From Nanobdellota archaeon (lineage in GTDB: Archaea; Nanobdellota; Nanobdellia; Woesearchaeales; GW2011-AR4), in contig JADFLA010000001.1 in the NCBI GenBank assembly GCA_022564635.1, forward strand, positions 7,041 to 71,040: a DNA stretch of 64,000 bases. The letters run 5' to 3'. The position numbers were made by a program, and so were the translations under genes. Below the pieces are notes generated by a model. It worked only from the letters and a program-made list of their open reading frames with translations. It was not told where the DNA came from and did not search any database. Numbering within the stretch: position 1 is the first letter of the stretch; every line of letters starts with the position of its first letter. This document shows, piece by piece, positions 2,750 through 63,574 of the stretch.

Positions 2750-3475
2750 TTAAAATATATTTTGTGCTGGATAAATAATAATACCATTATTATCTTTTAT
2801 TTGCATGGGGAATGTTTTAGTGGTATGTTTTGTCCCTCTCATCTTAAAAATTTCAAGACTTCTTGTCCTGATACCCTTAATTTTGGAATTATAAATCCAT
2901 AAAATGCTATCTACTTCAAAATCTAATGGGGTTACCTTATGTCCCTCAATATCATATTCCGAAGTAAGTAATGAACATAATTTCCAATTGCGTAACATTT
3001 TAAATAAATTTAAATAAGACGCTCTTAAAACTAATTCACTTTTAAATAATAAAGAGTATGATGTCATCGAGTCAATTACAATCCTTTTAGCTTTTAGTTT
3101 ATTAATTATTTGAGATTCCAACTTTTCAACCTGTTTATGAACTTCCAATTGAATATCTGTTGGTGATATTTCTATTATACTAACTTTAATTTCTTTATCT
3201 AATTTTTCTAAATCCCACCCAAAACTATTCATATTCTTCATAATATTATCTTTCCCTTCCTCAAGTGTTATATATACTCCAGGCTCATTATATTTTGTTG
3301 CACCATTAACTAGGTATTGCATTGCAAAAATACTTTTTCCGCTACCAGGACCACCAGCTATCATATTTATGCTGTTTCTTACTAAACCACCCATCATCCC
3401 ATCATCTAAATTCTTTATTCCAGTAGGAACCCTTTCCATAGTATCATCTTTTTTTATCAATTTATATTCCTCCAA
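2750..3475 (-). CDS. KaiC-like / RadB-like RecA-superfamily ATPase
   Basis: Walker A GGPGSGKS, FAMQYL...GVYITLEE, C-terminal KMRGTKH...IIYP motif. Confidence 0.75.
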   Translation of the reverse strand: MEEYKLIKKDDTMERVPTGIKNLDDGMMGGLVRNSINMIAGGPGSGKSIFAMQYLVNGATKYNEPGVYITLEEGKDNIMKNMNSFGWDLEKLDKEIKVSIIEISPTDIQLEVHKQVEKLESQIINKLKAKRIVIDSMTSYSLLFKSELVLRASYLNLFKMLRNWKLCSLLTSEYDIEGHKVTPLDFEVDSILWIYNSKIKGIRTRSLEIFKMRGTKHTTKTFPMQIKDNNGIIIYPAQNIF

Positions 3476-4853: not shown

Positions 4854-5618
4854 ATGGCTTTACAATTCACTTTTCTATATGGAATTATAGTTTTAGTGGT
4901 TTTATATGTCTTATCTAGTTTAAAGATAGTCAACGAATACGAAAGGGGGGTGCTATTTTTCTTAGGAAAATATATTGGATTAATGAAACCAGGATTAAAG
5001 ATAGTATTGCCAGTTATAATGAGCTGGGAAAGAGTAGATTTAAGAGTTAAAGCAGTAGATGTTCCAGATCAAGATGCTATTACAAAAGACAATGTCTCTA
5101 TTAAAGTAAATGCTGTACTTTATTATAAGGTAGATGATGCAACAAAAGCTATACTTGCAGTTGAACATTATAGATTTGCAATATCTCAATTAGCACAAAC
5201 TACAATGAGGGATGTTGTTGGTGAGGTAAGCTTGGATGAGTTATTGAGCAAAAGAGATTCTGTTTCTAAACGAATAAGGGAAATTGTTGATGAATCAAGT
5301 GACCCTTGGGGTATCAAAGTAGAAGGTGTAGAACTTAAACACGTTGAGCTTCCTGAGTCATTAAAACGAATTATTGGAAAAGAAGCAGAAGCTGAGCGTG
5401 AAAAAAGAGCTGTTATCATTAAAGCTGCTGGAGAAGTAATTGCTTCAACTAATATGGCAAAAGCCGCTGATACCTTGGCAAAAGCCCCTGGAGCTCTACA
5501 TTTAAGAACATTACAAAGTATTAATAATATTTCCAGTGATGCCTCAAATACAGTAATCTTTGCAATCCCTCTTGAAGTCCTCAGAGCAATTGAAGGGTTT
5601 AAGGATAAGAAAACCTAA
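4854..5618 (+). CDS. SPFH/band-7 (stomatin/prohibitin-like) membrane protein
   Basis: N-terminal TM then conserved SPFH core (NEYERGVLFFLGKY...), coiled-coil tail; SD-like GAGGGTGGTGA upstream. Confidence 0.8.
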   Translation: MALQFTFLYGIIVLVVLYVLSSLKIVNEYERGVLFFLGKYIGLMKPGLKIVLPVIMSWERVDLRVKAVDVPDQDAITKDNVSIKVNAVLYYKVDDATKAILAVEHYRFAISQLAQTTMRDVVGEVSLDELLSKRDSVSKRIREIVDESSDPWGIKVEGVELKHVELPESLKRIIGKEAEAEREKRAVIIKAAGEVIASTNMAKAADTLAKAPGALHLRTLQSINNISSDASNTVIFAIPLEVLRAIEGFKDKKT

Positions 5619-5690: not shown

Positions 5691-6722
5691 TTATAGCTTA
5701 TACCTCAGTGTAGCTACAACGCTTCCATGTTTGTGAAGCTTTTCTAGAACTTCATTATTAGTTATAAACTCAACTTCAACAGAAGTTTTCTCTGCAAGCT
5801 CAATCATATTAATAATTATACTATTCTCTTCTGGAGTTTTTGCATAATAATCAGATGCTATAAGCAATGTATCTACAGCTCCTGTGCGCAAAGCTGTATG
5901 TATAATGCTATTTTCCTTTTCTGCCAGACCTTTCTTAACCCTAGCTTCTACTTTTTGAAGCTGCTGTAGCTCAAGCTGTTTCCTTAAATGGTCAAGTGCG
6001 TTTATAACCTTAGTTGTTATATTATCATCTGGAGTGGAAAAGTAAATGCCATCAATGATTCTTGTCTTTTTTCTTACATTCTTGTTTATGTATGATTGCA
6101 TAAATTCTTTCTTTGCCAAACCTGGACCTGCAAGAAGAATAAGTTCTATCTGAGTAAGATTAATGTTCTTTAAACGTTCTTTAACTTTATTGAAGAAATG
6201 CTTGATCTGCAAATCTCTAAGCCTTTCAAATCTTCCCTGACTCCAACCTCCTTTACTATGTTTTCCTTTGAGATAGGTCTTAATCTTAGCATGTTGTAAT
6301 ATATCCTTGCCTTTGTAATGTCGAATCATTGCTTCCTTATGGTCCAATACAATTAACAACACATCGTAGTTTATCTCAAGTATATCATGTAAAGGTTCTG
6401 TATATGGCTTTTTTCCAACTATATAAACTGGTGGCAATGCCTTTGATACAACAAACTCCTTAATAACTATATCCTCTTTAGCATTCCAACCAAAAATACA
6501 AATACTGCCATTATAAATTTTTTTGGATGCTAACCTTTTCTCAATAATAGCTTCTATTTCCTCAATCTCTGGCAATCTTTCAGTTTCCCTAAGAGTATTT
6601 ATCATGTTAGAGGCTTCGCTTATTGGGACATAAACAGAAACTACAGGTGAGTAAGATTGATTAAGTTCTTTAAGAAAACGATTTATTGAATACCACTCCT
6701 TTGGTAATAAGATATCTCTCAT
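5691..6722 (-). CDS. eRF1/aRF1-family protein, divergent: NIKS region absent, GGQ replaced by GGW
   Basis: Collinear with eRF1 domains N-M-C (SVYVPIS ~ SLIIPP; KGKHSKGGWSQGRFERLRD ~ KKHGRGGQSALRFARLR; C-terminal ...ATLRYKL ~ ...GGILRYRV). Codon TGG verified at the Q position. Confidence 0.7.
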   Translation of the reverse strand: MRDILLPKEWYSINRFLKELNQSYSPVVSVYVPISEASNMINTLRETERLPEIEEIEAIIEKRLASKKIYNGSICIFGWNAKEDIVIKEFVVSKALPPVYIVGKKPYTEPLHDILEINYDVLLIVLDHKEAMIRHYKGKDILQHAKIKTYLKGKHSKGGWSQGRFERLRDLQIKHFFNKVKERLKNINLTQIELILLAGPGLAKKEFMQSYINKNVRKKTRIIDGIYFSTPDDNITTKVINALDHLRKQLELQQLQKVEARVKKGLAEKENSIIHTALRTGAVDTLLIASDYYAKTPEENSIIINMIELAEKTSVEVEFITNNEVLEKLHKHGSVVATLRYKL

Positions 6723-6773
6723 TATGAGTGCTTTAATATTAAACTATTAAATTCTTTCGAAACATGTATTTTT

Positions 6774-6918: not shown

Positions 6919-7290
6919 TTAAATCACATTTATTAATAATTTCTCACCATGATCTGTGCTGCAAAACGTTTCTGGATTACCTTTCTGATTTGCTACAAAC
7001 TGGATTGTTGTTGTTTGTCCTGGCCTTACAAATTCTCTTACCCCGAAAACTGGCAAAGAAATTCCATGTGTAACGCCATCATTGTTTTTTATATTAATTC
7101 TTACAGTATCTCCAAAATTAACATTAATGCTTTGAGGATTATACTGAAAATTTTGAATAGCTGTGTTAAATTCTTTTACTTCTGCAGAAGATGCTGGAGC
7201 ATAACCACTTGTATTTGATGCTGCTTTGCATCCTGCTACAAAAATAATAAAAATTGACAGTAAAATCAATAAATAATATTTTCTATTCAT
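6919..7290 (-). CDS. cupredoxin-like domain lipoprotein
   Basis: signal peptide with lipobox VAGC; beta-rich domain with GDTV...THG...FCSTDHG pattern resembling cupredoxin-like copper-binding fold (non-canonical ligand spacing). Confidence 0.5.
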   Translation of the reverse strand: MNRKYYLLILLSIFIIFVAGCKAASNTSGYAPASSAEVKEFNTAIQNFQYNPQSINVNFGDTVRINIKNNDGVTHGISLPVFGVREFVRPGQTTTIQFVANQKGNPETFCSTDHGEKLLINVI

Positions 7291-7410
7291 AAAATACCCA
7301 ACCCTATAGTAACAAAATTAGTATTGTTTATAAATATTTTGATTGAAATTAAAAATGTTTATAAGTATGCTTATGTTAATAAGGATAATAAATTATGGGG
7401 GTGTCAAAAA

Positions 7411-7767
7411 ATGGAAAAAGTTTTAGTACATACGACATGGGGTCCTACAGACCCAACAAGAGCTGGGCTTGCCTTTGCTTATGCTATGGTGTCTAAAAAG
7501 CAAGGTGCAGAAGTAGAGATGTTTCTTTTCCACGATGCTGTGTTGCTTGCGAGGAAACAGATGTATCCATTAGCTGTACCGATAGGTCCACCACCAATAA
7601 AGGATTGTATGGAATATCTTTTAGAGCAGAAAGTAAAAATATACGTTTGTAAACCTTGTTACGAATTAAGAGGAATGGACGAAAAAGATTTAGTGGAAAT
7701 GGCAGAATTAAAGGGCATGGACTATTTTGTTGAGTTAGCAAAAACGAGTAAAGTTGTAAGTTTTTAA
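7411..7767 (+). CDS. DsrE/DsrF-like family protein
   Basis: ~118 aa from ATG 7411 (GGGGGTG SD-like 8 nt upstream); TTWGPTDPTRAGLAF...YVCKPCYELRG resembles DsrE-family fold; ORF-track start 7324 probably too far upstream. Confidence 0.55.
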   Translation: MEKVLVHTTWGPTDPTRAGLAFAYAMVSKKQGAEVEMFLFHDAVLLARKQMYPLAVPIGPPPIKDCMEYLLEQKVKIYVCKPCYELRGMDEKDLVEMAELKGMDYFVELAKTSKVVSF

Positions 7768-8006: not shown

Positions 8007-8885
8007 ATGCAAGACAATAGTATTGAAAAATCTTTGAAAATTGCTATAATATTAACTTCTATATTCTTTGTTGTTGAGGTTGTAGGTTCCTTAATTTCAG
8101 GGTCCTTATCGTTGCTAGGAGATGCTGTGCATATGTTTAGGGATGTATTTGCTCTGTTAATATCATTAAGCGCAATTAATATTGCAAAAAAATTGCCTTC
8201 GATGACAAAAACATTTGGGTACCATAGAGTAGAAATTTTCGCATCCTTCCTTAACGGGATTTTACTTTTTGGGGTAAGTGGATGGATTTTCTGGGAAGCA
8301 TATCAAAGATTTTTTACACCAAAACCAATTGAAAGTGCAACTATGTTTGTTGTTGCGTTTATTGGCCTTTTAGTAAATTTGTATGTTGTTTCAAAGCTCC
8401 ATGGAAGCCATGACCTAAATGTTAAGAGTGCATTTGTGCATGTTCTTGCAGATACACTCTCTTCGATAGCAGTTATTTTTGCCTCAATCTGGATATTTTT
8501 CACAAATCAAACTATTATTGACCCAATATTAGGCGGTGTAATAGCCTTGTTTATTTTGTTTTCTGCATTTGTAATAATAAAAGACTCTGTACATGTACTT
8601 CTGGGGTTTGCCCCGAAAAATGTTGATTTTGATGATGTCATTAAAGATATTGAAAGAGTTAAAGGTGTAGATGGCGTTCATAATGTCCATTTATGGACTT
8701 TATGCTCAAATATAAATATCATAGATGCGCATGTATTTACAAATGAACCAAGTACGGCTAAAATAGAAGGGATAAAGGAAAAAATCAAGAAAAACCTGGA
8801 AAAATACAACATAAAACATGTTACTCTTGAATTTGAATGCAAAGAGTGTATTGAAAAAGATAAAATTAAGAAAGTAAAGCATTAA
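8007..8885 (+). CDS. czcD: cation diffusion facilitator (CzcD/ZitB-type) metal efflux transporter
   Basis: 6-TM core with CDF signature (GSLSLLGDAVHMFRD, HVLADTLSS) and C-terminal cytoplasmic domain. Confidence 0.85.
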   Translation: MQDNSIEKSLKIAIILTSIFFVVEVVGSLISGSLSLLGDAVHMFRDVFALLISLSAINIAKKLPSMTKTFGYHRVEIFASFLNGILLFGVSGWIFWEAYQRFFTPKPIESATMFVVAFIGLLVNLYVVSKLHGSHDLNVKSAFVHVLADTLSSIAVIFASIWIFFTNQTIIDPILGGVIALFILFSAFVIIKDSVHVLLGFAPKNVDFDDVIKDIERVKGVDGVHNVHLWTLCSNINIIDAHVFTNEPSTAKIEGIKEKIKKNLEKYNIKHVTLEFECKECIEKDKIKKVKH

Positions 8886-42209: not shown

Positions 42210-43274
42210 TTATTCCTCAACCTCGAAAAATCCCATCCATCCTAGTTCAGCAAACTCTGTTTTATGGGCATGGAACATATATTTTCCTGGAAATTTGAAT
42301 CTTATATCTAAAATAGACCTCTCTCCCTGACCCATAATTAATATGTCGGTGTAAAAATCAGGCTCGAGTTCTGTTCCAGTAGGATATTCATCAAAGAAGT
42401 TTGCATGCACATGGAATGAATTTATCTGGTCAAATTCCAAAATATTCGTTAAATAAATCCTTACTAATTCTCCCTGCTTTACTTTTATTGGGTTGTTTAT
42501 GAAATAGAAAGCAATTGTATTAACCGAGTAAATTTCATTTTCCCCGTCAAAGTTAACATCAAAACCATTCATCATCATTATTAGTTCCTTATCTGGTTTT
42601 GGCCTTGTATCCTCTTTAGGATCAACAATGTAAGTTCCATACAATCCCCTATGTATATGCTCGCTTACCGGCAAACTATGGCAATGATACAAATGAGTCC
42701 CAAATGGAACTGCTTCAAATTCATAAAAGAAAGTATCTCCAGGGTTAACAAACTGGTTTTTCATTGCACCATCCATTTCTGCAGTATGGAAGCCATGAAA
42801 GTGTATTGTATGTGGTTTTGTGCCTCTATTCTCAAAATGTATCCTTACTAAATCACCTTCTGTTACCCTTATTGTAGGTCCTGGAACCTGTCCATTATAA
42901 GCCCATGCTGGAAAGAAAATCCCAGGAGCAACCTCAATTTCCCTATCCTCAATATAGAACCAATATTCTCTAATCAAGCTTCCATCAGACCTTTTCGTTT
43001 CTTTGTAGAATTTTTTACGTTCCTCTTTTGGAAGATTATTGAAATTCCATGTTGTAAGATATTCCATTGGATCAATGCCAATTGCATCCTCTCCTACTTG
43101 TCCAACCATACCCATATTATGCTGAGCAATCTGCTGCAGTTTAGCAAAATCAACTTCATTATCTTGTGCAATAACCTCCGTAGGAGTTAATAACTTAAAA
43201 ATAAGAAATCCAAGTACTAAAAATACTATTAATAATGGAATTCTGATTTTATTCAATACAGCTTTTTCTAACAT
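42210..43274 (-). CDS. two-domain multicopper oxidase
   Basis: Cu-site motifs HTIHFHGFH, HCHSLPVSEHIHRGLYG, FHAH; signal/TM anchor. Confidence 0.7.
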   Translation of the reverse strand: MLEKAVLNKIRIPLLIVFLVLGFLIFKLLTPTEVIAQDNEVDFAKLQQIAQHNMGMVGQVGEDAIGIDPMEYLTTWNFNNLPKEERKKFYKETKRSDGSLIREYWFYIEDREIEVAPGIFFPAWAYNGQVPGPTIRVTEGDLVRIHFENRGTKPHTIHFHGFHTAEMDGAMKNQFVNPGDTFFYEFEAVPFGTHLYHCHSLPVSEHIHRGLYGTYIVDPKEDTRPKPDKELIMMMNGFDVNFDGENEIYSVNTIAFYFINNPIKVKQGELVRIYLTNILEFDQINSFHVHANFFDEYPTGTELEPDFYTDILIMGQGERSILDIRFKFPGKYMFHAHKTEFAELGWMGFFEVEE

Positions 43275-61720: not shown

Positions 61721-63574
61721 TCATTTAATGCCTAATTTCTTTGAATATAATGGATTATCAGGTTCCAACTTAAAAGCAGTCTCAAACTCTTTATCAGCTA
61801 AATCATCCTGCTTCAAAAACTCCAATAAAATACCTAGATTATAATGTGCATCTGCATAATCCTTATCAATCCTTATAGCATCATTAAACTCAAGTAATGC
61901 CAAATCAATCTCTCCTATTCTACCATAAACTGTAGCCAAATCATTACGAGCTTTTGCATATCTTGGACTAATTCTAATTGCTTCCTTAAAACTATCAATA
62001 GCTTTTTCTTCCATCTTTATTTCCACATACACTAAACCTAATTTATCAAAGGTTTTATGATATTTATTTATTTTAATTGATTTTTCCAATGTTTTGATAG
62101 ATTTATTGTACAATCCTAATTTTGCATATGCAACTCCTAAATTTGCTAGCGCTCTAAAATTATCTGGTTGTAATTTAACTGATTTTTCAAATTCCACCAA
62201 AGCCTTTTCCGTATCTCCAGCCCTTTCATATGTAAAACCCAAATTATCATGGGCCCTGCTATTATTTGGATTGCTTGCAACAGTTTTGCTCCATAGCGTT
62301 AAATTATCCCTCCATTCATTATTTCTTTTTACCGTTGAGAAAACATAAAAACTTAGCAATAAAATAATAAAAACTACAACACTATACTTTATAATATTCT
62401 TACTTTTAAATTTATAATTAAATAATGTAATTAATAAATAAGATAATAATAATGAAAAAGCAATTGACGGAACATACAAATACCTTTCAGCCATAAAAAC
62501 TTGTAAAGGTAATATGTTAGAGAATGGAATCAATGCAATAAAAAACCAAAAAACAGAAAAAAACAAAATTCTATTCTTATTATATCTTAATGTAAAAAAG
62601 AAAATTGTAATCAAAATTAATACAGAAAAAAGAACTTTAAAATCAAATAAAGAAACTGCTGGAGAAATTTCATGAAATAATGTCAGATTTATTGGAACTA
62701 TCAATAAATAAATATAGTAAACATAAACTTTTAGCATTGTAAGCATTGTTAAAAAGAAGTTTCCTGCAAGATATTCTTCAATACGACCTCTGAATCCAAC
62801 AATAATGAATCTTACAATAATAAAAAATAAAGCAACAACAAAAAAAGGGATATATTTTTTAATATTGTTTTTAATTAATTTTTTATTGAAACTTTCTCTA
62901 TTGAAACAAAACTCATACAAAATAATAATTAATGGCAATACAATAGCTTCTTCTGACGAGAAAACCGCAAGTAAATAAATTAACAATGACGACAATAAAT
63001 ATTTATTTTTTAAAACATTAATTTTATTTGATGAATCTTTAATATTGTTTGAAAATTTGATATAAAAATAAAATGATAATAACATAAAAAATATACCCAA
63101 TAAGTCAAAGCCAGCTGTTATGTTTGTAACCCTACCAGTATGTATTGGATGAACAGCAAATATCAAAGCAGAAATTAAAGCAATATTTCTTCTATTAACA
63201 ATTTCATAAATAATTAAAAAAACTAATATTGAGATAATTGTGTGCAAAAAAATACTGTTAAAATGATACAGAAACTCATTCTTTCCAGCCATTGCATAGA
63301 TAAAAGTGTAATGCAAACTCCTTAAAGGCCTGTATAATCCATCAGTATCCTGTTTAAAAAACAAAGGCAAATTAGAAAAAGACCTTATATCTTGATTATC
63401 TAAAATGAAAACATGATCATCCCATACAAACTCATTCTTAAAAACATTAAAATAAGAAACTAAAGATAAAAGAATAATTAATATTATTGGAATTATAGTT
63501 TTATTCTTGTTCATAAAATTGTTGTTTAGATTATAAATATTAAAATCTTTGTAATAATTAGTTACTCTCATCAT
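61721..63574 (-). CDS. polytopic membrane protein with C-terminal TPR repeats (TMTC/DUF1736-type putative glycosyltransferase)
   Basis: ~10 N-terminal TMs followed by 6-7 TPR units (…AHDNLGFTYERAGD…ALANLGVAYAKLGLY…). Confidence 0.6.
   Translation of the reverse strand: MMRVTNYYKDFNIYNLNNNFMNKNKTIIPIILIILLSLVSYFNVFKNEFVWDDHVFILDNQDIRSFSNLPLFFKQDTDGLYRPLRSLHYTFIYAMAGKNEFLYHFNSIFLHTIISILVFLIIYEIVNRRNIALISALIFAVHPIHTGRVTNITAGFDLLGIFFMLLSFYFYIKFSNNIKDSSNKINVLKNKYLLSSLLIYLLAVFSSEEAIVLPLIIILYEFCFNRESFNKKLIKNNIKKYIPFFVVALFFIIVRFIIVGFRGRIEEYLAGNFFLTMLTMLKVYVYYIYLLIVPINLTLFHEISPAVSLFDFKVLFSVLILITIFFFTLRYNKNRILFFSVFWFFIALIPFSNILPLQVFMAERYLYVPSIAFSLLLSYLLITLFNYKFKSKNIIKYSVVVFIILLLSFYVFSTVKRNNEWRDNLTLWSKTVASNPNNSRAHDNLGFTYERAGDTEKALVEFEKSVKLQPDNFRALANLGVAYAKLGLYNKSIKTLEKSIKINKYHKTFDKLGLVYVEIKMEEKAIDSFKEAIRISPRYAKARNDLATVYGRIGEIDLALLEFNDAIRIDKDYADAHYNLGILLEFLKQDDLADKEFETAFKLEPDNPLYSKKLGIK

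What the first reader, a model, noticed from the sequence alone, without database searches (positions are those of the whole stretch)
5691..6722. aRF1-family protein with the catalytic GGQ replaced by GGW and no NIKS-type decoding motif
The ORF aligns end to end with eRF1/aRF1, including the GGQ-loop context KGKHSKGG-W-SQGRFERLR versus KKHGRGG-Q-SALRFARLR, and the codon at the Q position is TGG. The N-domain is about 40 aa shorter and has no NIKS-like motif. This resembles the Pelota/Dom34 loss pattern, but the N-terminal domain here is eRF1-like and not the Sm-like Pelota domain. It is either a degenerate release-factor paralogue (a rescue or recycling factor) or, if it is the only aRF1, a striking anomaly for translation termination.
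Basis: partly seen in the sequence, partly recalled or inferred. Interest (0 to 1): 0.6.

Follow-up and report, generated by a model that had tools for sequence, protein, structure and literature searches.

The report
Archaeal release-factor paralogue with GGWSQ loop
This gene encodes a conserved third relative of the archaeal translation-termination factor that has lost the parts that read stop codons, while its peptide-release loop stays strictly conserved in a known variant form (Gly-Gly-Trp-Ser-Gln); it is probably a specialised ribosome-rescue or release factor, not a sequencing error or a broken gene.

Summary
ORF 5691-6722 (minus strand, 343 aa) aligns end to end with aRF1. It has TGG (Trp160) at the classical GGQ glutamine position and no NIKS loop.

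It is not an error or a decaying gene. About 130 homologues form a distinct family in Nanoarchaeota, Hadarchaeota, Bathyarchaeota-labelled bins and Nitrososphaerota. The loop reads GGWSQ in 51 members and GGQSQ in 77 (Nitrosopumilaceae). The segment HxKGGxSQxRF is the most conserved stretch of the protein and has no indels. Only position 160 varies; Gln162 is nearly invariant. dN/dS against an orthologue is 0.15.

[quoted passage not shown] I also found it in proteins matching Pfam baeRF_family10. Across 111 representatives, when the classical Gln is absent, Gln at +2 is present in 51 of 52.

The GTS-type and NIKS loops are deleted and YxCxxxF is reduced to one Tyr. The C-terminal domain and its LRY motif are kept.

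Best reading (inferred, untested): a stop-codon-independent peptidyl-tRNA hydrolase delivered by aEF1α. The main rival is a non-catalytic A-site blocker.

In passing, I found bona fide aRF1s with intact NIKS that also carry GGWSQ.

The parts
5691..6722 (-). Complete ORF of 343 aa plus stop: a NIKS-less aRF1-family paralogue. It is identical to NCBI MCH8003003.1, which is annotated 'peptide chain release factor 1 [Nanoarchaeota archaeon]'.
   Evidence: dN/dS of 0.15 against orthologue L001
6408..6722 (-). N domain (residues 1-105) with aRF1-type alpha-beta-alpha-alpha-beta-beta-beta topology. It has family-specific invariant residues E9, W10, N14, Y31, P33, F77, G78, W79 and P97. The GTS-type and NIKS loops are deleted, and only Y100 of YxCxxxF is kept.
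   Evidence: the N domain alone has no significant PDB match (best is the Balon N domain, E 0.04, TMq 0.54)
6573..6584 (-). Tip of the helical hairpin (residues 47-50, ETER), where canonical aRF1 carries the NIKS loop. There is a 7-residue deletion relative to aRF1.
6018..6407 (-). M domain (residues 106-235), the RNase-H-like eRF1 domain 2. Pfam scores: eRF1_2 70 bits, acVLRF1 54 bits, baeRF_family10 39 bits, all above their gathering cutoffs.
6228..6260 (-). Release loop H155-x-K-G-G-W-S-Q-x-R-F165. It is the lowest-entropy 11-residue window of the family and has no indels in 131 members.
6243..6245 (-). Codon 160, TGG (Trp), at the classical GGQ glutamine position. This is the only variable position of the loop: W, Q, S, Y or M across the family.
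6237..6239 (-). Codon 162, CAG (Gln), the Gln of the GGxSQ motif. It is conserved in 97% of non-redundant family members.
5913..6017 (-). Long linker helix (residues 236-270) between the M and C domains, as in aRF1.
5694..5912 (-). C domain (residues 271-343), a minimal Pelota/eRF1_3-type domain without the insert seen in canonical aRF1. It aligns to the human Pelota C domain with TM-score 0.80-0.82. Pfam eRF1_3 scores 23.8 bits, just below the 25.8 cutoff.
5700..5708 (-). C-terminal L339-R340-Y341, equivalent to the [AG]ILRY motif of aRF1, eRF1 and Pelota. That motif is implicated in binding the carrier GTPase.
   Evidence: role of the motif from PMC2613156

Best explanation
The gene encodes a member of a conserved archaeal third paralogue of the aRF1/Pelota superfamily.

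Shown:
- It has the full three-domain tRNA-mimic architecture of aRF1.
- Its stop-codon-reading elements are removed: the GTS-type and NIKS loops are deleted and YxCxxxF is reduced to one Tyr.
- Its C domain keeps the LRY carrier-binding motif.
- Its peptidyl-transferase-centre loop is kept at exactly the aRF1 length, with every aRF1-invariant residue except the classical Gln (both Gly, Ser, Arg, Phe, Arg). A near-invariant Gln sits two residues later, giving GGxSQ, here GGWSQ.

Inferred:
- aEF1α·GTP delivers it to the A site, as it does aRF1 and aPelota.
- Its altered N domain docks in the decoding centre without reading a stop codon.
[quoted passage not shown] The backbone NH and the two glycines would supply the catalytic geometry. 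Gln162, Trp160 or both would do the packing and water-selection job of the classical Gln.

Its role would be an alternative or rescue release factor for ribosomes stalled without a readable stop codon. That makes it a hydrolytic complement to the non-hydrolytic Pelota/ABCE1 route.
For: - Fold and alignment.
- Separate family: 131 members of 336-378 aa, monophyletic against canonical aRF1 in an NJ tree. No curated model reaches its cutoff.
- Loop conservation: HxKGGxSQxRF is the lowest-entropy window (0.45 bits) with zero indels. Burroughs & Aravind use a constrained loop length plus a conserved Gln as the signature of catalytically active aeRF-1 families. They report GGxSQ for aVLRF-1 and acVLRF-1 and a conserved Gln for baeRF family 10 (PMC6514570).
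- Covariation: among 111 full-length representatives, x≠Q goes with Gln at +2 in 51 of 52, while x=Q goes with Gln at +2 in only 23 of 59 (Fisher p = 2e-12). The one window-family member that lacks Gln162 has Gln back at position 160 (RGQSA, P0050).
- GGWSQ occurs in bona fide aRF1s. These pass TIGR03676 with 356-464 bits and have intact NIKS and YxCxxxF, in housekeeping synteny. This argues that the loop is release-competent.
- Literature: the Gln side chain has a packing role and the Gln backbone amide is the catalytic group, whereas any Gly mutation abolishes activity (PMC5799190; PMC6742477; PMC3467058).
- Purifying selection: dN/dS 0.15.
- LRY motif kept. aEF1α is the carrier of both aRF1 and aPelota (PMC3467058).
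Against: - There is no experimental datum for any member.
- No conserved gene neighbourhood points to a pathway.
- The key aRF1 residues that contact aEF1α are only partly conserved. The K290 equivalent is mostly Lys, but the Y257 equivalent is variable.
- Trp is bulky, and no test of Trp at the Gln position was found in the held literature.
- One divergent member (P0154) has GGASA, with no Gln at all.
- The covariation test is not corrected for phylogeny.
- A canonical aRF1 and a Pelota in this same genome were not demonstrated.
Confidence: 0.45

Rival explanations
1. It is a non-catalytic A-site occupant. Like bacterial Balon, a baeRF-1 relative, it would bind the A site, possibly with aEF1α, to silence or protect ribosomes during stress. 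Trp160 would stack on a peptidyl-transferase-centre nucleotide to plug the site rather than catalyse hydrolysis.
For: - The classical Gln is replaced and the NIKS loop is lost, as in Balon (PMC10901736).
- Balon structures are strong full-length structural matches (8v9k at E 2e-16).
- The only PDB match of the N domain alone is a Balon N domain (E 0.04, TMq 0.54).
- There are weak NCBIfam hits to Balon-type hibernation-factor models.
- The NJ tree places the family next to the baeRF_family10-like group.
Against: - Balon-type families have unconstrained, poorly conserved loops without the Gln (PMC6514570). Here the loop is the most conserved segment, keeps the aRF1 length and keeps a Gln.
- Scores against the Balon models are far below cutoff (36 against 320).
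- The Nitrosopumilaceae members keep a full GGQSQ.
- The same GGWSQ occurs in NIKS-bearing aRF1s.
Confidence: 0.25
2. It is a Vms1/ANKZF1-like factor acting on split large subunits. After Pelota/ABCE1 splitting, it would release, or cut the CCA end from, peptidyl-tRNA stuck on 50S subunits. This would be an archaeal counterpart of ribosome-associated quality control.
For: - NCBI names family members 'Vms1/Ankzf1 family peptidyl-tRNA hydrolase'.
- Pfam acVLRF1 scores above cutoff.
- The GGxSQ and GxuQ motif logic belongs to the VLRF-1 clade.
Against: - The protein keeps an N domain and a C domain with the LRY motif, which fit delivery by a GTPase to a whole ribosome.
- The VLRF-1 families are described as lacking one or both of these domains and as having a longer loop. 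Here the loop has exactly the aRF1 length.
- The NCBIfam acVLRF1 model scores 26 against a cutoff of 125.
Confidence: 0.12
3. It is the organism's main or only termination factor and uses a novel way of reading stop codons.
For: - No canonical aRF1 lies in the 64 kb window.
- GenBank calls it 'peptide chain release factor 1'.
Against: - All three decoding elements are gone.
- The family is a separate lineage from aRF1. It is found in phyla with canonical aRF1, for example Hadarchaeum aRF-1 P0395. aRF1 and Pelota are reported as universal in archaea (PMC2613156; PMC6514570).
- The window covers only a small part of the genome.
Confidence: 0.05
4. It is an artefact: an assembly or sequencing error at the Gln codon, or a decaying pseudogene.
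For: None found.
Against: - TGG is present at the same codon in 11 independent loci and 51 protein clusters.
- CAG to TGG needs two substitutions.
- The ORF is intact and dN/dS is 0.15.
- Trp is also used at invariant positions 10 and 79.
Confidence: 0.01

Closest known systems
Canonical archaeal class-1 release factor aRF1 (TIGR03676; PDB 4af1, 3agk)
   Same: It has the same three-domain fold and an end-to-end alignment. The release loop has the same length and the same invariant Gly-Gly, Ser, Arg, Phe and Arg. It has the same linker helix and the C-terminal LRY motif.
   Different: The GTS-type and NIKS loops are deleted and YxCxxxF is reduced to one Tyr. Trp sits at the Gln position. The C-domain insert is missing. 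The score is 102 bits against a cutoff of 235.
[quoted passage not shown]
   Same: It shares the GGxSQ loop motif. The Pfam acVLRF1 hit is above cutoff. These families are predicted alternative peptidyl-tRNA hydrolases, and aVLRF-1 has an archaeal distribution.
   Different: [quoted passage not shown] This protein has both flanking domains and no coiled-coil extension. Whether the authors' aVLRF-1 set includes this family could not be checked, because the supplement is not held.
baeRF_family10 (Pfam PF18854), the bacterial aeRF-1 family that keeps a conserved Gln
   Same: It has three domains and no NIKS loop. The loop is KKGG[W/M/C/F/L]SQ.RF.R.R, with Trp the commonest x. It is the nearest group in the NJ tree, and the Pfam hit is above cutoff.
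   Different: The window family has a different N domain, with the EWY..N and FGW motifs specific to it. The group is about 360-375 aa long. The one genomic context I looked at appears bacterial. HMM scores between the two groups are only about 130 bits, against more than 420 within the window family.
Balon / Rv2629 ribosome hibernation factors (PDB 8rd8, 8v9k)
   Same: Both are aRF1-derived three-domain A-site binders without NIKS. Balon uses the elongation-factor carrier. It is a good full-length structural match.
   Different: Balon has no GGQ-type loop; it has a lasso loop, a bL27 trap and an HP motif. Here the aRF1-type loop is strictly conserved. Scores against the curated Balon models are far below cutoff.
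Pelota / Dom34
   Same: Both are stop-codon-independent aRF1 paralogues, share the C-domain fold and the LRY motif, and are archaeal.
   Different: Pelota has an Sm-like N domain and lacks the GGQ tip. Here the N domain is aRF1-like and the tip is the best-conserved part.

Membership tests
Canonical aRF1/eRF1 (class-1 release factor) | Three-domain N-M-C tRNA-mimic fold | tested here: met
   AF2 model with pLDDT 89. Foldseek match to 4af1 at E 1e-21 over 408 columns. hhalign probability 99.9 over 338 columns.
Canonical aRF1/eRF1 (class-1 release factor) | NIKS loop and YxCxxxF decoding motifs in the N domain | tested here: not met
   The NIKS loop is deleted (7 residues) and the GTS-type loop is deleted (3 residues). 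Only Tyr100 of YxCxxxF remains.
Canonical aRF1/eRF1 (class-1 release factor) | GGQ tripeptide | tested here: not met
   The window protein has GGW (TGG at 6243-6245). The family has W in 51 members, Q in 77, S in 3, Y in 1 and M in 1.
Canonical aRF1/eRF1 (class-1 release factor) | Score at or above the curated equivalog cutoff (TIGR03676, 234.7 bits) | tested here: not met
   It scores 101.8 bits, and other family members score 65-81 bits. The control aRF1 P0078 scores 605.6.
Pelota / Dom34 | Sm-like beta-barrel N domain | tested here: not met
   The N domain is alpha-beta-alpha-alpha-beta-beta-beta and aligns with the aRF1 N domain. TIGR00111 scores 32 bits against a cutoff of 178 and matches only the M and C domains.
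Pelota / Dom34 | GGQ tip absent or poorly conserved | tested here: not met
   The loop at 155-165 is the lowest-entropy window and has no indels.
aVLRF-1 (Burroughs & Aravind 2019) | GGxSQ catalytic-loop motif | tested here: met
   The loop is KGGWSQ. Gln162 is 97% conserved.
aVLRF-1 (Burroughs & Aravind 2019) | No C-terminal Pelota domain, and a long coiled coil N-terminal to the codon-binding domain | tested here: not met
   A C-terminal Pelota-type domain is present (TM-score 0.8 to 5eo3, LRY motif). The N terminus starts directly with helix 7-20.
acVLRF-1 (PF18859 / NF041024) | Pfam gathering score | tested here: met
   It scores 54.4 bits against a cutoff of 27.1.
acVLRF-1 (PF18859 / NF041024) | Loss of the codon-binding N domain, a short distinctive N-terminal extension, and the NCBIfam cutoff of 125 bits | tested here: not met
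   An N domain of about 105 aa with aRF1 topology is present. NF041024 scores 26.3 bits.
baeRF_family10 (PF18854) | Pfam gathering score, three-domain architecture and a conserved loop Gln | tested here: met
   It scores 39.4 bits against a cutoff of 27.1, has three domains, and Gln162 is conserved.
baeRF_family10 (PF18854) | Membership of the bacterial clade (bacterial distribution, clustering inside the family) | tested here: inconclusive
   The window family is archaeal. It forms a separate sister cluster in a midpoint-rooted NJ tree. Cross-family HMM scores are about 130 bits, against more than 420 within the family. No maximum-likelihood phylogeny was run.
Balon / Rv2629-type hibernation factors | Curated model cutoffs (320-480 bits) | tested here: not met
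   It scores 36, 28 and 12 bits.
Balon / Rv2629-type hibernation factors | Lasso loop in place of the GGQ loop, HP motif and bL27 trap | tested here: not met
   The loop has aRF1 length and aRF1 residues. bL27 is absent from archaea (PMC10901736). No HP motif was looked for structurally.

The most novel reading that the evidence does not exclude
GGxSQ, usually GGWSQ, is a second functional solution for the 'universal' GGQ release loop. The window family would then be the missing hydrolytic, stop-codon-independent ribosome-rescue factor of archaea: delivered by aEF1α, functionally analogous to bacterial ArfB or mitochondrial ICT1, but built on the aRF1 scaffold. It may also be the archaeal sister or source lineage of the bacterial baeRF-1 clade that later gave rise to Balon-type hibernation factors.
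Probability: 0.3. Interest if true: 0.7.

Novelty: new member of a known kind. Interest (0 to 1): 0.5.

Why it matters
Archaea are thought to rescue stalled ribosomes only through the non-hydrolytic Pelota/ABCE1 route. A conserved aRF1-shaped factor without stop-codon readers but with a strictly conserved release loop would add a hydrolytic route. It is also common in the ecologically important ammonia-oxidising Nitrosopumilaceae.

The data also bear on the catalytic mechanism. Trp is tolerated, and even selected, at the Gln position, provided that a Gln sits two residues later. This includes proteins that otherwise look like ordinary aRF1. The GGQ tripeptide may therefore not be as universal as textbooks state.

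Current database names for this family are inconsistent. 'Peptide chain release factor 1' and 'Vms1/Ankzf1 family peptidyl-tRNA hydrolase' are both used, and neither is tested.

Tried and rejected
- Gene neighbourhood. I clustered all ORFs from 80 loci plus the window and found only Nitrosopumilus-internal synteny, with nothing shared across phyla. The Hadesarchaea, N. ureiphilus and window contexts are unrelated to each other.
- aRF1 or Pelota in the window. tblastn found only this gene. A weak hit at 61769-61918 lies in a TPR protein. ORFs of Pelota size are SecD/F and a multicopper oxidase.
- Co-occurrence of a canonical aRF1 in the same genome. The exact protein is not in the contig index. 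Canonical N-domain probes hit none of the paralogue loci I hold.
- My own guess that 'CIFGW' is the YxCxxxF equivalent. hhalign rejected it: the true equivalent is PPVY100.
- Divergent peptidyl-transferase-centre rRNA as an explanation. The known divergent clades are hyperthermophiles such as Pyrobaculum, which is not relevant here.
- Literature on Trp at the GGQ Gln. No held paper combines GGW, GGQ and release factor, and none names Q-to-W mutants. A guessed PMC id for the paper I wanted was not held.
- The promoter and terminator scan uses bacterial consensus sequences and was not informative.
- The supplement of Burroughs & Aravind is not held, so identity with their aVLRF-1 set stays open.
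Full report
**1. What is in the sequence**

The ORF at 5691..6722 lies on the minus strand and encodes 343 aa. Codon 160 is TGG (plus-strand 'cca' at 6243-6245) and codon 162 is CAG (6237-6239). phmmer against PDB sequences finds A. pernix aRF1 (3agk) as the best match at E 1e-14. The loops align without gaps, KGKHSKGGWSQGRFERLR against PGKHKMGGQSQRRYERI, so Trp160 occupies the classical Gln position. Pfam finds eRF1_2 (70 bits), acVLRF1 (54 bits) and baeRF_family10 (39 bits), all above cutoff, and eRF1_3 just below cutoff (23.8 against 25.8). The curated aRF1 equivalog TIGR03676 scores 102 bits against a cutoff of 235. A control canonical aRF1 scores 606 bits. The protein is therefore aRF1-related but not an aRF1 orthologue.

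**2. It belongs to a conserved family and is not an error**

The protein is identical to GenBank MCH8003003.1, annotated 'peptide chain release factor 1 [Nanoarchaeota archaeon]'. Two database searches gave about 130 full-length relatives of 336-378 aa. Canonical aRF1s follow only at E 1e-19 or worse. A scan of one genome per GTDB species found relatives in 375 stretches of species-representative genomes. The best 80 are from Nanoarchaeota, Hadarchaeota, a Methanocellales-labelled bin and, mostly, Nitrososphaerota (Nitrosopumilus, Nitrosarchaeum, Nitrosopelagicus).

The loop reads as follows across the family:

| Loop | Members |
|---|---|
| GGQSQ | 77 |
| GGWSQ | 51 |
| GGSSQ | 3 |
| GGYSQ | 1 |
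| GGMSQ | 1 |
| RGQSA | 1 |

GGQSQ is confined to the Nitrosopumilaceae clade. GGWSQ occurs in Nanoarchaeota, Hadarchaeota, other Nitrososphaerota and Bathyarchaeota-labelled bins. All 11 Trp codons I could read are TGG. The two Ser variants whose DNA I hold use TCG and TCA, and TCG is one step from TGG. dN/dS between the window gene and its 78%-identical orthologue in L001 is 0.15. An assembly error or a pseudogene is excluded.

**3. Anatomy**

The AlphaFold model (pLDDT 89.3, pTM 0.78) has three domains. Foldseek against PDB ranks aRF1 4af1 first (E 1e-21, TMq 0.72, 408 columns). Next come eRF1s, then Balon (2e-16), then Pelota (about 1e-12). The C domain superposes on the human Pelota C domain with TM-score 0.80-0.82.

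A profile-profile alignment of the family (A1) against canonical aRF1s (A2) is end to end, with probability 99.9 and E 3e-36. It shows:
- a 3-residue deletion where aRF1 has its GTS-type loop;
- a 7-residue deletion that removes the NIKS loop;
- only Tyr100 left of YxCxxxF;
- the insert of about 40 aa (the Zn-ribbon region) absent from the C domain;
- the C-terminal xLRY motif kept.

Its secondary-structure order is alpha-beta-alpha-alpha-beta-beta-beta. Modelled alone, it has no significant PDB match; the best is a Balon N domain at E 0.04 and TMq 0.54. It carries family-specific invariant residues: E9, W10, N14, Y31, P33, F77, G78, W79 and P97.

**4. The loop is the most constrained part of the protein**

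I analysed 34 members that are non-redundant at 75% identity. The lowest-entropy 11-residue window of the whole protein is H155-x-K-G-G-x-S-Q-x-R-F165 (mean 0.45 bits). No member of the 131 has an indel between residues 150 and 170. K157, G159, S161, R164, F165 and R169 are invariant. H155, G158 and Q162 are 97% conserved. Position 160 is the one variable site. These positions match the invariant loop residues of canonical aRF1 (G179, G180, S182, R185, F186, R188 in A2), with the single exception of the Gln.

This is the opposite of the Pelota pattern, where the tip is deleted or poorly conserved (PMC2613156). It is also unlike most baeRF-1 families, where loop length and sequence are unconstrained (PMC6514570).

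**5. GGxSQ is a known motif, and the Gln two residues downstream covaries with loss of the classical Gln**

[quoted passage not shown] They describe the VLRF-1 clade as having a GxuQ logic. They also note that baeRF family 10 keeps a conserved Gln and may be catalytic.

An exhaustive HMM search of 1.84 billion cluster representatives with the family profile gave 2825 hits at E ≤ 1e-3. I extracted the loop from the best 150. A large group of proteins of about 360-375 aa carries KKGG[W/M/C/F/L]SQ.RF; those I checked are best matched by Pfam baeRF_family10.

Among 111 full-length representatives:

| Residue at the classical Gln position | Gln at +2 |
|---|---|
| not Gln | 51 of 52 |
| Gln | 23 of 59 |

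Fisher's exact test gives p = 2e-12. This is not corrected for phylogeny. However, the non-Gln state appears at eight or more scattered places inside the canonical aRF1 part of the tree. The one window-family member without Gln162 has Gln back at position 160 (RGQSA, P0050). So the loop appears to need one Gln, at either position.

**6. Bona fide aRF1s with GGWSQ exist (found in passing)**

Five representatives with intact NIKS and YxCxxxF pass TIGR03676 (356-464 bits) but read GGW. Two read GGF, one GGA and one GGE, always followed by SQ. One lineage consists of eight clusters at 60-66% identity. All read PSKHTKGGWSQ[KR]RF, EAANIKSKS and Y[NR]CxxxF. One member carries a source name: 'peptide chain release factor aRF-1 [archaeon]'. 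Its gene lies in a housekeeping context, with a diphthamide-synthase gene upstream and a TruD gene downstream in two genomes, and with other genes in between in one of them. This suggests that GGWSQ can serve in real termination. That supports a catalytic reading for the window protein.

**7. Mechanism**

Published structural and kinetic work assigns catalysis to the glycine-dependent backbone conformation and the backbone NH of the Gln. The Gln side chain is assigned a packing role (PMC5799190; PMC6742477; PMC3467058). aEF1α·GTP carries both aRF1 and aPelota. The [AG]ILRY motif is implicated in binding the carrier.

I therefore infer the following sequence of events. aEF1α delivers the protein to the A site. 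The N domain docks without reading a codon. [quoted passage not shown] This would be a hydrolytic rescue or alternative-release activity.

The fold, the loss of the decoding motifs, the loop constraint, the covariation and the purifying selection are shown. Carrier use, the ribosomal state recognised and catalysis itself are inferred. I put this reading at 0.45.

**8. Rivals**

A Balon-like non-catalytic blocker is the main alternative, at 0.25. It fits the loss of NIKS and of the classical Gln, the structural similarity to Balon and the tree position next to baeRF-1. It does not explain the aRF1-grade constraint on the loop, the retained Gln, or GGWSQ in NIKS-bearing aRF1s.

A Vms1-like role on split 50S subunits (0.12) fits the NCBI name. 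It fits poorly with the retained N and C domains and the aRF1-length loop.

'Sole termination factor' (0.05) and 'artefact' (0.01) are unlikely for the reasons given above.

**9. Context and limits**

The gene stands alone. Its neighbours are an SPFH/Band 7 protein gene (4854-5618, plus strand), a cupredoxin gene (6919-7290, minus strand), and DsrE-like and cation-efflux genes. No neighbour is conserved across phyla. The window holds no aRF1, Pelota or tRNA gene. I could not test co-occurrence with a canonical aRF1 in this genome. For other phyla it rests on the reported universality of aRF1 and Pelota and on a Hadarchaeum aRF-1 (P0395).

**10. Comparison with known families and novelty**

The protein fails the tested defining features of canonical aRF1, Pelota, acVLRF-1, Balon and, as described in the paper, aVLRF-1. 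It meets the Pfam criteria of baeRF_family10, but it is archaeal and clusters separately. The best description is an archaeal, three-domain, NIKS-less member of the GGxSQ branch of the aeRF-1 superfamily.

The kind is known only computationally, through PMC6514570, the Pfam models and the NCBI product names. No held paper discusses Trp at the Gln position or this family. I rate it as a new member of a known kind, with an interest score of 0.5. The score rests mainly on the conserved Trp, the Gln covariation and the GGWSQ-bearing true aRF1s.

Noticed in passing
L087:10001-11197 (GCA_003558235.1, PWMI01000075.1); L088:10001-11200; proteins P0193, P0317-P0323, P0180, P0264, P0273, P0293: Bona fide aRF1s pass the curated TIGR03676 cutoff with intact NIKS and YxCxxxF, yet carry GGWSQ instead of GGQ. 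Others carry GGF (P0186, P0249), GGA (P0289) or GGE (P0227). One lineage of 8 clusters is uniformly GGWSQ, and its gene has a diphthamide-synthase gene upstream and a TruD gene downstream in two genomes. Whether it is the only aRF1 in those genomes is unknown.
   Followed up: partly
Proteins P0162-P0165, P0181, P0182, P0191, P0197, P0201, P0221 and others; L090:6001-7101: A large group of NIKS-less three-domain proteins of about 360-375 aa carries KKGG[W/M/C/F/L]SQ.RF. Those I checked are best matched by Pfam baeRF_family10. Trp is the commonest residue at the classical Gln position. The one genomic context I looked at appears bacterial.
   Followed up: partly
111 full-length representatives (analysis): Covariation inside the release loop: when the classical Gln is replaced, the residue two positions later is Gln in 51 of 52. 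When the classical Gln is present, it is Gln in only 23 of 59 (Fisher p = 2e-12, not phylogeny-corrected).
   Followed up: partly
P0154 (343 aa; NCBI and Logan; 12.5 kb contig): A divergent relative of the window family (250 bits) has GGASA in the loop, with no Gln at either position. It may be a catalytically dead offshoot.
   Followed up: no
P0006, P0027, L009, L042: Members of this archaeal family sit in bins labelled Bacteroidetes, Atribacteria, Spirochaetales and Halieaceae. L042 lies on a 1.28 Mb contig. These are probably mis-binned or mislabelled archaeal contigs.
   Followed up: no
L044:2259-3278 and L068:8001-9026 (Nitrosopumilus sp. b1): One Nitrosopumilus genome carries two diverged copies of the paralogue. 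Both are GGQSQ.
   Followed up: no
L081:9076-10205, L082:9076-9957, L083:1522-2651: In Hadesarchaea the paralogue is followed on the opposite strand by a HEPN plus nucleotidyltransferase gene pair, a toxin-antitoxin-type module. A PIN/MazE-like pair lies nearby. This arrangement was not seen in the other loci I examined.
   Followed up: no
window 6744-6751 (minus strand, 22-29 nt upstream of the ATG at 6720-6722): An A/T-rich TATA-like element, TTTAATAG, lies 22-29 nt upstream of the start codon. This would fit a leaderless or very short-leader archaeal transcript. It rests on the sequence reading only.
   Followed up: no
window 1-64000: No tRNA gene was found in 64 kb. Copper- and sulfur-related genes are scattered in the window: a cupredoxin (6919-7290), a DsrE-like gene (7324-7767), a multicopper oxidase (42210-43274) and a cation-efflux transporter (8007-8885). 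There is also a KaiC-like ATPase (2750-3475).
   Followed up: no
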